From the NCBI RefSeq assembly GCF_016903815.1, contig NZ_CP069973.1: a DNA stretch of 64,000 bases; one strand, given 5' to 3'. The position numbers were made by a program. Origin of the DNA: Escherichia coli. GTDB lineage: Bacteria > Pseudomonadota > Gammaproteobacteria > Enterobacterales > Enterobacteriaceae. Of the stretch, positions 22,701 through 25,700 are shown in pieces (the stretch's first letter is position 1; each line of letters opens with the position of its first letter).

Positions 22701-25700
22701 GTGCGCGCGCTTCCAGCATATGACCGAGATTGATCAGACCGATAATCATCGCGCTGGCTTCGTAATAAAGATGTCGCGCTTCCATCGGGAACCACTGCGG
22801 CCACAGGTTGACGCTCATCGAATAGAGCCACGCCACGCCAGTACCCAGCGCCACCAGCGTATCCATCGTCGCTGCACCGTTCAGCAGGCTTTTCCATGCG
22901 CTGCGGTAAAAATGCCCGCCGGCGAAAACCATTACCGCCAGGGTTATCAGGCCGATAACCAACCACAGGCTGCGGTTGTCGGCGGTGACCATCATGTTAT
23001 CGCCGATCATCCCCCAGACCATCACCGGGATACCCACCGCCAGTGCGACAATCGCCTGCCAGCGGAAGCGCTTCATCGTAGCGACGGCGGTTTCTTGCTG
23101 GCGCTCGCGGCGTTTAGCGTCATCTTCAATCGCTTCCGCGCCGTAGCCCGCTTTTTCCACCGCCTGCACTAAATCTTGTGGGGAGGCACTGCCCATCACC
23201 AGCGCAGTACGCTCCGCCAGGTTTACCCGTGCCTGAGTGACGCCCGGTACGCTTTGCAGCGCATTTTGTACGCGGGTGACACAGCTGGCGCAGCTCATGC
23301 CGCTCAGCAGCAACTGCTGGCTGTCATCGTCATCGGCGGTCGCTGCCGGAAGCGCCTCAGAAACCGCTGTCAGTGCTTCCGACGGGATTGATGACTCCGC
23401 CAGCGGTTTAGCCTTTGGGTGGCTTACAGATGCGTCATAACCCGCTTGTTTGATGGTTTCGATCAGCTGTTCTGCACTGGCAGTCCCGGTAACGTGCGCT
23501 TCAGTGACAGACACATCCGCCTGCTCAACATCCGGGCGCTGTTCGAGACTTTCTTTCACGCGTTTAACGCAGTGACCGCAGGACAGGCCGTCCAGGGTCA
23601 GGTCGATAGTTTGTGACATAAAACACTCCTTTTAAGACAGTTTTGACTGGCTGTGATAAAGGTTAAACCTTCCAGCAAGGGGAAGGTCAAGAAATTAATA
23701 AACCAGGCGGGTAAAAGTCCGTAAAGATTAAAAAATCGGCTCGATTTGCATCAGGATTAGACATTTATCTCTTTGTTTTCCTGTAGTTAAGTTGCGGGTG
23801 CTAAGTTAAATCAGGATGCCTGAAAATCGGCACCGGGGTGAGGAATTACCTCCCGCATCTATAAAAAGGAGTTAACAAAAGATGTTAGATGCAAACAAAT
23901 TACAGCAGGCAGTGGATCAGGCTTACACCCAATTTCACTCACTTAACGGCGGACAAAATGCCGACTACATTCCCTTTCTGGCGAATGTACCTGGTCAACT
24001 GGCAGCAGTGGCTATTGTGACCTGCGATGGCAACATCTATCGCGCGGGTGATAGTGATTACCGCTTTGCGCTGGAATCCATCTCGAAAGTCTGTACGTTA
24101 GCCCTTGCGTTAGAAGATGTCGGCCCGCAGGCGGTACAGGACAAAGTTGGCGCTGACCCGACCGGATTGCCCTTTAACTCAGTTATCGCCTTAGAGTTGC
24201 ATGGCGGCAAACCGCTGTCGCCACTGGTAAATGCTGGCGCTATTGCCACCACCAGCCTGATTAACGCTGAAAATGCCGAACAACGCTGGCAGCGAATTTT
24301 ACATATCCAACAACAACTGGCTGGTGAGCAGGTAGCGCTCTCTGACGAAGTAAACCAGTCGGAACAAACAACCAACTTCCATAACCGGGCCATTGCCTGG
24401 CTGCTGTACTCCGCCGGATATCTCTATTGTGATGCAATGGAAGCCTGTGACGTGTACACCCGTCAGTGCTCCACGCTCATCAATACTGTTGAACTGGCAA
24501 CGCTTGGCGCGACGCTGGCGGCGGGTGGTGTGAATCCGCTGACGCATAAACGCGTTCTTCAGGCCGACAACGTGCCGTACATTCTGGCTGAAATGATGAT
24601 GGAAGGGCTGTATGGTCGCTCCGGTGACTGGGCGTATCGCGTTGGTTTACCGGGCAAAAGCGGTGTAGGTGGCGGTATTCTGGCGGTCGTCCCTGGCGTG
24701 ATGGGAATTGCCGCGTTCTCACCACCGCTGGACGAAGAAGGCAACAGTGTTCGCGGTCAAAAAATGGTGGCATCGGTCGCTAAGCAACTCGGCTATAACG
24801 TGTTTAAGGGCTGATCATGATGAACACGGAAGGTAATAACGGTAACAAACCCCTCGGTTTATGGAACGTCGTTTCCATCGGCATTGGGGCAATGGTGGGG
24901 GCGGGGATCTTCGCGCTGCTGGGGCAGGCTGCGTTGCTAATGGAAGCCTCGACCTGGGTCGCCTTTGCTTTTGGCGGTATTGTGGCGATGTTTTCCGGTT
25001 ATGCCTATGCGCGCCTGGGGGCGAGCTATCCCAGCAATGGCGGTATTATCGACTTCTTTCGTCGCGGATTAGGCAACGGCGTCTTTTCGCTGGCACTCTC
25101 GTTATTGTACCTGTTGACGCTGGCGGTGAGCATCGCCATGGTCGCCCGTGCTTTTGGCGCTTATGCCGTGCAGTTTTTGCATGAAGGCAGTCAGGAGGAG
25201 CACCTTATATTGCTCTACGCGTTGGGGATCATTGCGGTGATGACGCTTTTCAACTCCTTAAGCAACCATGCGGTAGGGCGGCTGGAAGTGATCCTCGTCG
25301 GCATTAAAATGATGATCCTGTTATTGCTGATCATTGCAGGTGTCTGGTCGCTGCAACCGGCGCATATTTCTGTCTCTGCGCCCCCCAGCTCCGGTGCGTT
25401 CTTCTCCTGTATCGGGATAACCTTCCTTGCCTATGCGGGCTTTGGCATGATGGCGAACGCGGCGGATAAAGTGAAAGATCCGCAGGTCATTATGCCACGG
25501 GCGTTTCTGGTGGCGATTGGCGTTACCACGTTGCTTTATATCTCGCTGGCGCTGGTTTTGCTTAGCGATGTATCGGCATTAGAGTTAGAAAAATATGCCG
25601 ATACCGCCGTAGCGCAGGCAGCTTCTCCGCTGCTCGGGCATGTGGGTTATGTGATCGTCGTCATCGGCGCTTTACTGGCGACGGCTTCAGCCATCAACGC

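What the first reader, a model, noticed from the sequence alone, without database searches (positions are those of the whole stretch)
23653..23680. CueR operator in the copA promoter, with cueR itself 28 kb away behind the island
The copA promoter shows TTGACC and TTTAACC separated by a 19 bp spacer containing the ccttcc-N7-ggaagg dyad, the MerR-type arrangement bound by CueR. The regulator gene lies at 52022, separated from its target by the secretion island and fused to the adaptor gene, which could couple copper sensing to island transcription.
Basis: partly seen in the sequence, partly recalled or inferred. Interest (0 to 1): 0.3.

Follow-up and report, generated by a model that had tools for sequence, protein, structure and literature searches.

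The report
Known copA copper-sensor promoter, regulator displaced
This is the textbook copper-responsive copA promoter of E. coli, identical to the laboratory strain's; its regulator gene cueR lies 28 kb away only because a glutaminase operon and a giant-adhesin secretion island sit between them, and nothing suggests that copper controls the island.

Summary
The motif is real and is not a chance match. On the minus strand at 23660-23690 the window reads TTGACC / TTCCCCTTGCTGGAAGGTT (19 bp) / TAACCT. The perfect inverted repeat ACCTTCC-N7-GGAAGGT lies at 23667-23687, directly upstream of copA (21115-23619, minus strand). The promoter is identical to K-12 PcopA and matches the published CueR box geometry.

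- The stated coordinates miss the -35 and the right half-site.
- "TTTAACC" as the -10 gives a 17-bp spacer, not 19.
- cueR (52022-52429) is not fused to the adaptor gene. Its ATG overlaps the hlyD stop codon (ATGA), and the two genes are in different frames.

The island is O-island 28, known from EHEC: tolC28, the 6925-aa adhesin SiiEA, hlyB28 and hlyD28. It has no CueR-like dyad in its promoter regions, so copper sensing is not visibly coupled to island transcription.

Comparative work added context. In other Enterobacterales cueR sits divergently, 9 nt from the PcopA -35. In Escherichia, glsA-ybaT and the island occupy that gap. K-12 keeps a 95-bp hlyD remnant, so it is a deletion derivative, and that deletion also destroyed the ybaT terminator.

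Verdict: an already known element with ordinary function and low interest. One modest question stays open: how cueR is transcribed.

The parts
23685..23690 (-). PcopA -35 hexamer TTGACC
   Evidence: Read directly. Part of the only composite-pattern match in the window. Invariant in the alignment with 8 other Enterobacterales.
23666..23684 (-). 19-bp spacer TTCCCCTTGCTGGAAGGTT, 2 bp longer than the sigma-70 optimum
   Evidence: Counted. The 16-18 bp consensus scan does not call this promoter. A 19-bp spacer is the published PcopA feature (PMC8169799).
23667..23687 (.). CueR operator: perfect inverted repeat ACCTTCC-N7-GGAAGGT (core CCTTCC-N7-GGAAGG at 23668-23686)
   Evidence: Zero mismatches and unique in the window. 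Same core as K-12 PcueO and the published core.
23660..23665 (-). PcopA -10 hexamer TAACCT
   Evidence: It lies 2 bp from the CueR box, as published for wild-type PcopA.
21115..23619 (-). copA, the Cu(I)-exporting P-type ATPase (834 aa) and target gene of the promoter
   Evidence: ORF. RefSeq annotation of the 100% identical strain 7/2 record. Pfam E1-E2_ATPase, two HMA domains and a HAD hydrolase domain.
23882..26109 (+). glsA (ybaS) and ybaT, the first block between the operator and cueR; Escherichia-specific relative to the other genera sampled
   Evidence: Annotation. Absent from the copA-cueR divergons of Klebsiella, Enterobacter, Yersinia, Pantoea and others. Absent from Salmonella per PMC1526738.
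26121..26143 (+). Intrinsic-terminator hairpin after ybaT: GCGCAGTAC-tgcct-GTACTGCGC followed by CTTTGTCTTT
   Evidence: Terminator scan. RNA fold -16.6 kcal/mol, z = -5.2. The 3' arm is deleted in K-12, where the fold is -7.6 kcal/mol with z = +1.0.
26153..26166 (+). RstA box TAATTCAAATTACC of the O-island 28 regulatory region
   Evidence: Exact single match, 0.01 expected. The motif is as published for EHEC OI-28 (PMC12758282).
26447..27801 (+). tolC28, TolC-family outer-membrane component, frameshifted here at a T7 tract (T8 in O157:H7)
   Evidence: PGAP note 'frameshifted'. Alignment with O157:H7 ATCC 43888, where the gene is intact. Pfam OEP.
27910..48687 (+). siiEA, a giant BapA-related adhesin (6925 aa, intact ORF)
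   Evidence: ORF list. RefSeq product name.
48691..50853 (+). hlyB28, type I secretion ABC permease/ATPase
   Evidence: Annotation. Pfam ABC_membrane and ABC_tran.
50850..52025 (+). hlyD28, type I secretion periplasmic adaptor (391 aa), ending at the natural HlyD-family C-terminus ...EALRER*
   Evidence: Annotation. Pfam HlyD_3 and HlyD_D23. Aligns end to end with the last residue of HlyD chain 8dck_C (...ESLHER, residue 478 of 478).
51927..52021 (+). Last 95 bp of hlyD28, retained as a frameshifted remnant upstream of cueR in K-12-type genomes. It must contain the cueR ribosome-binding region and may contain a weak promoter.
   Evidence: K-12 PGAP pseudogene. tblastn match and nucleotide alignment. 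E. albertii retains the last ~55 bp (from 51967) through an independent deletion.
52022..52429 (+). cueR (135 aa), the Cu(I)-sensing MerR-family regulator that binds the operator in trans; its ATG overlaps the hlyD28 stop codon (ATGA, 52022-52025)
   Evidence: Same protein accession WP_001026747.1 as K-12. 100% identical to PDB 1Q05. Pfam MerR_1 and MerR-DNA-bind. Junction sequence.

Best explanation
Window 23660-23690 (minus strand) is the canonical CueR-dependent promoter of copA.

Mechanism (established for this exact sequence in K-12, not tested here):
- A CueR dimer binds the inverted repeat ACCTTCC-N7-GGAAGGT. The repeat fills the over-long 19-bp spacer and overlaps the -35 by 3 bp.
- Without Cu(I), CueR holds the promoter in a poorly recognised conformation.
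- With Cu(I) (or Ag(I) or Au(I)), CueR bends and under-twists the spacer. The -35 and -10 then realign for sigma-70 RNA polymerase and copA is transcribed.

CueR is a diffusible protein acting in trans, so the 28.3 kb between site and gene has no mechanistic consequence for copA control.

The distance is an evolutionary accident (shown by comparison):
- In other Enterobacterales cueR is divergent from copA, with its ATG 9 nt from the PcopA -35.
- In Escherichia that short gap is occupied by glsA-ybaT plus the tolC28-siiEA-hlyB28-hlyD28 type I secretion/adhesin island (O-island 28).
- This leaves cueR as the last, stop/start-overlapping cistron after hlyD28.
- K-12-type genomes are deletion derivatives. 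They removed about 25.8 kb (window ~26138-51926), keeping 95 bp of hlyD and destroying the ybaT terminator.

Inferred only: cueR is transcribed either by read-through from upstream genes or from a weak promoter in the retained hlyD 3' end. Copper does not regulate the island through CueR.
For: - Sequence and geometry of the promoter.
- Unique composite match with 0.00 expected by chance and a unique perfect dyad.
- Identity to K-12 across the whole copA-glsA intergenic region except one A.
- The 61 bp around the site are at least 99% identical in 4955 of 5426 complete E. coli genomes and present in 5422.
- Published core, spacer, -35 overlap and -10 distance all fit (PMC8169799).
- The K-12 cueO promoter has the same architecture, cTTGACCTTCCCgtaaggGGAAGGacTATGCT.
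- CueR is identical to the crystallised K-12 protein.
- Island identity: annotation, 98.5% identity to the O157:H7 OI-28 left end, and an exact RstA box.
- Ancestral divergon: operator and both hexamers are conserved and followed by GGGGGAA(A/C)G-ATG(cueR) in Klebsiella, Enterobacter, Superficieibacter, Yersinia, Pantoea and Affinibrenneria. Synteny there is copA<>cueR-ybbJ-qmcA. The literature reports the same for Salmonella (PMC1526738).
- K-12 as a deletion: hlyD remnant.
- No CueR-like dyad in the island promoter regions.
Against: - Nothing contradicts the identity of the operator.
- Binding and copper response were not measured for this strain; they are carried over from K-12, whose site and protein are identical.
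- The outgroup sample is biased. It was retrieved with a pattern requiring GARMG before the cueR ATG, and two of those loci (L004, L011) show no dyad within 130 bp of cueR.
- How cueR is transcribed is unresolved. No consensus sigma-70 promoter was found upstream of cueR in the window or in K-12.
Confidence: 0.93

Rival explanations
1. Placing cueR at the end of the secretion island couples copper sensing to island transcription, with CueR regulating the island or copper status feeding into adhesin expression.
For: Only the physical linkage: cueR overlaps hlyD28 by 4 bp.
Against: - No CueR box exists in the island regulatory regions. The best match has 5 of 12 core mismatches, equal to the shuffle mode.
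- Near-matches across the window are at chance level, 25 against 21.3, and all lie inside genes.
- No second promoter with CueR-type architecture is present.
- The published OI-28 regulator is RstA responding to Ca2+ and makes no mention of copper (PMC12758282).
- The position of a regulator gene does not make upstream genes respond to its ligand.
Confidence: 0.04
2. Reverse coupling. In island-bearing strains cueR is co-transcribed, and possibly translationally coupled through ATGA, with tolC28-siiEA-hlyB28-hlyD28. CueR dosage would then follow the RstA/Ca2+ adhesion programme. In K-12-type strains loss of the ybaT terminator puts cueR under glsA-ybaT (acid-induced) read-through instead.
For: - The gene spacing leaves no room for signals: siiEA to hlyB has a 3-bp gap, and hlyB/hlyD and hlyD/cueR each overlap by ATGA.
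- No strong terminator and no consensus promoter lie between hlyB28 and cueR.
- A strong terminator after ybaT in the window is destroyed in K-12.
- A ybaS-ybaT-ybbI operon has been predicted for K-12 (PMC1526738).
- The nearest Shine-Dalgarno-like GGAGG lies 13 nt from the cueR ATG.
Against: - There are no transcript data.
- The junction RNA is unstructured (z = +1.4), so the cueR start is accessible without coupling.
- CueR works by allostery, and both apo and holo forms bind DNA, so dosage may matter little.
- CueR level is also set by proteolysis (PMC5329002).
- Transcription through a 21-kb adhesin gene is likely to be attenuated.
Confidence: 0.3
3. Autonomous cueR. A weak, non-consensus promoter and the ribosome-binding region lie inside the last ~55-95 bp of hlyD28, so cueR is expressed constitutively and independently of whatever lies upstream.
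For: - Two independent deletions, K-12 type (right junction at 51927) and E. albertii (right junction at ~51967), both retained the hlyD 3' end.
- That segment is about 90-95% conserved between island-bearing and island-less genomes.
- CueR is functional in K-12, O157 and this lineage despite three different upstream contexts.
Against: - No promoter-like site at the scan's threshold was found in either the window or K-12.
- Retention may only reflect the need to keep the cueR start and RBS.
- Two events is a small sample.
Confidence: 0.4
4. The dyad is a chance palindrome with no function.
For: None.
Against: - Expected count is 0.00 in shuffles.
- The site is identical in K-12, where it is experimentally characterised.
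- It is conserved across genera from Escherichia to Yersinia and Pantoea.
Confidence: 0.005

Closest known systems
E. coli K-12 PcopA / CueR (Outten 2000 and Stoyanov 2001, as cited in PMC1526738; structures 1Q05, 4WLW, 6LDI, 7C17 and 6XH7)
   Same: The promoter, operator, spacer length, target gene and regulator protein are identical.
   Different: There is one extra A in the copA 5' UTR. In K-12 cueR is 2.6 kb from the operator, directly after ybaT and a hlyD remnant. Here it is 28.3 kb away, behind an intact island.
K-12 PcueO, the second CueR-activated promoter
   Same: -35 TTGACC, a 19-bp spacer, the CCTTCC-N7-GGAAGG core in the same register, and 2 bp to the -10.
   Different: The central 7 bp differ (CGTAAGG against CCTTGCT), the -10 differs (TATGCT against TAACCT), and the outermost dyad position is imperfect.
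copA-cueR divergon of Salmonella, Klebsiella, Enterobacter, Yersinia and Pantoea
   Same: The same operator and hexamers, nearly base for base, and the same downstream neighbours ybbJ-qmcA.
   Different: There cueR starts 9 nt from the -35, so its leader must cross the operator. This is the MerR-style layout that allows autoregulation. In Escherichia the link is severed by glsA-ybaT, with or without OI-28.
Tn21/Tn501 MerR with PmerT/PmerR (from general knowledge)
   Same: The same activation mechanism, by distortion of a 19-bp spacer that carries a dyad.
   Different: A different metal, dyad sequence and target genes. merR is divergent and autoregulated, whereas cueR in this window is not adjacent to its site.
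O-island 28 of EHEC O157:H7 (tolC28, rtxA28/rtxB28, hlyB28, hlyD28; PMC12758282)
   Same: The same locus, gene order, RstA box and flanks, with 98.5% identity at the left end.
   Different: Here the adhesin is one intact 6925-aa ORF, whereas in O157:H7 it is split or a pseudogene. Here tolC28 is frameshifted (T7 against T8). The paper treats the island as acquired, but the hlyD remnant in K-12 and the presence of the island in other Escherichia species point to loss.

Membership tests
CueR-activated MerR-type promoter | Sigma-70 -35 and -10 hexamers separated by a 19-bp spacer | tested here: met
   TTGACC-19 bp-TAACCT. The promoter is not picked up by a 16-18 bp consensus scan.
CueR-activated MerR-type promoter | Inverted repeat CCTTCC-N7-GGAAGG within the spacer, overlapping the -35 by 3 bp and lying 2 bp from the -10 | tested here: met
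   Perfect dyad at 23667-23687. The register matches PMC8169799 and PcueO.
CueR-activated MerR-type promoter | Located directly upstream of, and oriented toward, a copper-homeostasis gene | tested here: met
   The -10 lies 41 nt upstream of the copA ATG on the same strand.
CueR-activated MerR-type promoter | A cognate CueR is encoded in the genome | tested here: met
   cueR at 52022-52429, 100% identical to PDB 1Q05 and to WP_001026747.1.
CueR-activated MerR-type promoter | CueR binding and Cu(I)-dependent activation | not testable with these tools
   Established experimentally for the identical K-12 sequence (PMC8169799). Not measured in this strain.
   hlyD28 ends at TGA 52023-52025 in frame 2, and cueR starts at 52022 in frame 1. 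HlyD28 ends at the family's natural C-terminus.
CueR regulon membership of the secretion island | A CueR box within a 19-bp-spacer promoter upstream of island genes | tested here: not met
   The best dyad match in 26110-26505 and 27802-27909 has 5 of 12 mismatches, equal to the shuffle mode. No second composite match was found.
O-island 28 type I secretion/adhesin locus | TolC-family, giant repetitive adhesin, ABC and MFP genes between ybaT and cueR, with the published RstA box upstream | tested here: met
   Annotation and Pfam. Exact RstA box. 98.5% identity to O157:H7.
Polycistronic operon tolC28...hlyD28-cueR | A single transcript spanning the hlyD28-cueR junction | not testable with these tools
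   Only indirect evidence: the ATGA overlap, and no terminator or consensus promoter nearby.

The most novel reading that the evidence does not exclude
In the roughly 16-18% of complete E. coli genomes that keep O-island 28, the copper sensor gene cueR may be the terminal, stop/start-overlapping cistron of an RstA/Ca2+-activated adhesin-secretion operon. CueR abundance would then be set by an adhesion programme. In K-12-type strains a 25.8-kb deletion that removed the ybaT terminator would have rewired cueR to the acid-induced glsA-ybaT operon. In both cases Escherichia would have lost the ancestral arrangement in which the cueR leader crosses its own operator.
Probability: 0.25. Interest if true: 0.4.

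Novelty: already known. Interest (0 to 1): 0.15.

Why it matters
The flagged site matters little as a discovery, because it is one of the best-characterised metal-responsive promoters. The check is still useful in three ways:
- It corrects the anatomy: the -10 is TAACCT, the true span is 23660-23690, and cueR overlaps hlyD28 rather than being fused to it.
- It removes the speculative link between copper and the island.
- It documents that cueR in Escherichia has been cut off from its own operator by insertions into a 9-nt gap, and that the K-12 layout is a deletion derivative of the island-bearing one.

The last point qualifies the published view that OI-28 was "acquired" by EHEC. It also raises a testable question about which promoter drives cueR in the different E. 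coli lineages.

Tried and rejected
- **Additional CueR sites.** I searched the 21-bp and 19-bp dyads with up to 3 mismatches and a composite promoter pattern, then ran a region-by-region best-match scan with shuffles. Only PcopA was found. The hit at 51008 (perfect left half-site, 3 mismatches on the right) lies inside hlyD28 and has no flanking hexamers.
- **A cueR-proximal promoter.** Consensus scans of window 51400-52700 and 48000-52100 and of K-12 L002 5700-6200 found none on the cueR strand near cueR.
- **An RNA structure sequestering the cueR start, which would force translational coupling.** None was found; the junction is less structured than shuffles.
- **Literature on a cueR promoter.** The search returned only noise from Spanish-language words. 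The 'siiEA' search gave one relevant passing mention.
- **A conserved TTGACC/T-17 bp-TAnnnA motif reading toward cueR in the outgroups.** I saw it by eye in alignment A2 as a candidate ancestral cueR promoter. Its -10 hexamers are too weak for the scan criteria, so I treat it as a lead only.
- **A GAD-box check for the glsA promoter.** I abandoned it after a by-eye comparison gave about 10 of 20 matches.
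Full report
**Where the window comes from.** The window is E. coli chromosome. It is 100% identical to strain 7/2 (NZ_CP023820.1), and window position 1 corresponds to record position 507085. RefSeq annotation of the relevant part reads:
- copA: 21115-23619, minus strand
- glsA: 23882-24814
- ybaT: 24817-26109
- a frameshifted TolC-family gene: 26447-27801
- siiEA: 27910-48687, 6925 aa
- a type I secretion ABC permease/ATPase: 48691-50853
- a HlyD-family adaptor: 50850-52025
- cueR: 52022-52429
- two hypothetical genes, a YadA-family gene and another hypothetical gene, then ybbJ-qmcA

Pfam domains agree with these names.

**Checking the observation.** The minus strand upstream of copA reads TTGACC TTCCCCTTGCTGGAAGGTT TAACCT.
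- In + coordinates the -35 is 23685-23690, the 19-bp spacer 23666-23684 and the -10 23660-23665.
- The perfect inverted repeat ACCTTCC-N7-GGAAGGT is at 23667-23687.
- It is the only perfect match in 64 kb.
- The composite pattern (hexamers, dyad and spacing) has one hit with up to 2 mismatches, against 0.00 expected from shuffles.

It is 19 bp with TAACCT. That reading fits the published description: the inverted repeat overlaps the -35 by 3 bp and the CCTTCC-N7-GGAAGG box lies 2 bp from the -10 (PMC8169799). The simple 16-18 bp promoter scan does not call this promoter, as expected for a 19-bp spacer.

**Identity with the characterised element.**
- The copA-glsA intergenic region matches K-12 at every position except one extra A in the copA 5' UTR.
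- The 61 bp around the site occur in 5422 of 5426 complete E. coli genomes, and are at least 99% identical in 4955.
- The K-12 cueO promoter, fetched for comparison, has the same architecture: cTTGACCTTCCCgtaaggGGAAGGacTATGCT.
- CueR in the window carries the same protein accession as in K-12 and is 100% identical to PDB 1Q05.

The mechanism can therefore be carried over from K-12. CueR binds the dyad in the over-long spacer. On binding Cu(I) it bends and under-twists the DNA, so that sigma-70 polymerase can recognise both hexamers (PMC8169799). CueR acts in trans, so the 28,345 bp between the operator and the cueR ATG has no bearing on copA control.

**The 'fusion' and the island.** hlyD28 and cueR are separate ORFs in different frames. 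They share ATGA, that is the hlyD stop TGA and the cueR ATG. hlyB28 and hlyD28 overlap in the same way. HlyD28 aligns to the very last residue of E. coli HlyD (...EALRER against ...ESLHER, residue 478 of 478 in 8dck_C). The adaptor therefore ends at its natural C-terminus, exactly on the cueR start.

The island is O-island 28, recently described in EHEC O157:H7 as an RstA/Ca2+-activated type I secretion/RTX adhesin system (PMC12758282).
- The published RstA box TAATTCAAATTACC is present once, at 26153-26166.
- The left end is 98.5% identical to O157:H7.
- That paper mentions neither cueR nor copper.

- Searching the core dyad with up to 3 mismatches gives 25 hits against 21.3 expected, all but PcopA inside genes.
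- In the island's two intergenic regions (26110-26505 and 27802-27909) the best match has 5 of 12 mismatches, which is the mode for shuffled sequence.

I found no sequence basis for CueR control of the island. The reverse relation, island transcription contributing to cueR mRNA, is possible:
- There is no room for signals between siiEA, hlyB28, hlyD28 and cueR.
- No consensus promoter or convincing terminator was found near cueR.

However, the junction RNA is unstructured (z = +1.4), so the cueR start should be accessible without translational coupling. No transcript data were available.

**How cueR came to be 28 kb away.** I scanned one genome per species for the junction pattern and analysed the 18 resulting loci.
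- In Klebsiella, Enterobacter, Superficieibacter, Yersinia, Pantoea and Affinibrenneria, cueR is divergent from copA. The sequence there reads ...AGGTTAAACCTTCCAGCAAGGGGAAGGTCAAGGGGGAA(A/C)G-ATG(cueR).
- The PcopA -35 is thus 9 nt from the cueR start, and ybbJ-qmcA follow cueR as in E. coli.
- In the window, similarity to these genomes ends immediately after GGTCAAG (23691) and resumes at GAACG-ATG (52017).
- So glsA-ybaT plus OI-28 occupy what is a 9-nt gap elsewhere.

The presence of ybaS-ybaT in E. coli and their absence from the Salmonella copA-cueR divergon were already noted in 2006 (PMC1526738). One caveat applies: my outgroup sample was selected by a pattern requiring GARMG before the ATG, and two of the loci lack a nearby dyad.

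**K-12 is a deletion derivative.**
- K-12 keeps 95 bp of the hlyD28 3' end, frameshifted, directly upstream of and overlapping cueR. PGAP annotates it as an incomplete pseudogene.
- The deletion spans about window 26138-51926. Its left end lies inside the ybaT terminator hairpin.
- That hairpin is strong in the window (-16.6 kcal/mol, z = -5.2) and destroyed in K-12 (-7.6 kcal/mol, z = +1.0).
- This fits the older prediction of a ybaS-ybaT-ybbI operon in K-12.
- E. albertii carries an independent deletion: the terminator is kept and the remnant starts at ~51967.
- Escherichia sp. E1V33 carries a near-full-length hlyD28 directly upstream of cueR, running to the edge of the fetched locus. In E. 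whittamii only the last 44 codons of hlyD28, next to cueR, fall inside the short locus.
- Among complete E. coli genomes, 958 have the island's left end and 878 have the hlyD-cueR junction together with its downstream flank.

The island therefore looks ancestral to the genus and repeatedly lost, rather than newly acquired by EHEC.

**Verdict.** The flagged feature is the known CueR operator in PcopA and is functionally ordinary. The surrounding evolutionary anatomy is tidy and partly undocumented, but of modest interest.

Noticed in passing
window 26490-26496 (T-tract in the first codons of tolC28, 26447-27801): The TolC-family gene of the island is frameshifted by a T7 tract. O157:H7 ATCC 43888 has T8 and an intact 451-aa gene. 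Other assemblies are 100% identical to the window here, so this is probably a real lineage variant, or possibly phase variation, rather than a sequencing error.
   Followed up: partly
window 23413-23419 (minus strand, copA nt 201-207): The slippery heptamer CCCAAAG is in the right register (C CCA AAG). A -1 shift would give 69 aa, then Gly, then a stop, for a total of 70 aa. This matches what I recall of the programmed-frameshift product CopA(Z) described for K-12.
   Followed up: partly
window 52430-55038: A low-GC (0.44) block between cueR and ybbJ is absent from K-12. It holds two hypothetical genes, a 338-aa protein with a YadA-like anchor domain, and a 120-aa hypothetical. It is present or absent independently of the island; some genomes have this block but not OI-28.
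   Followed up: partly
window 20687-21114: The ybaP-copA intergenic region is 428 bp here against 794 bp in K-12. The K-12 gene ybaQ (HigA-family antitoxin) is missing from the window.
   Followed up: partly
window 27910-48687; L022 3306-3602: siiEA is an intact 6925-aa ORF in this strain. In O157:H7 it is annotated as a pseudogene with an internal stop, and the OI-28 paper treats the two pieces as two genes, rtxA28 and rtxB28.
   Followed up: no
window 23636-23639 (copA 5' UTR): There is one extra A in the A-run just upstream of the copA Shine-Dalgarno sequence relative to K-12 (TTAAAAGGAG against TTAAAGGAG). This is the only difference in the whole copA-glsA intergenic region.
   Followed up: no
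L014 6712-6939 (Escherichia sp. MOD1-EC7003): glsA appears internally deleted in this species representative: only residues 1-46 and 266-310 match. It also carries the K-12-type island deletion junction.
   Followed up: no
alignment A2 columns ~77-115 (outgroup loci L010, L013, L015, L018, L019, L020): A conserved TTGACC/T is followed 17 bp later by a weak TAnnnA hexamer that reads toward cueR, just upstream of the operator. It may be the ancestral cueR promoter, whose transcript would cross the CueR site. The spacing is lost in E. coli.
   Followed up: no
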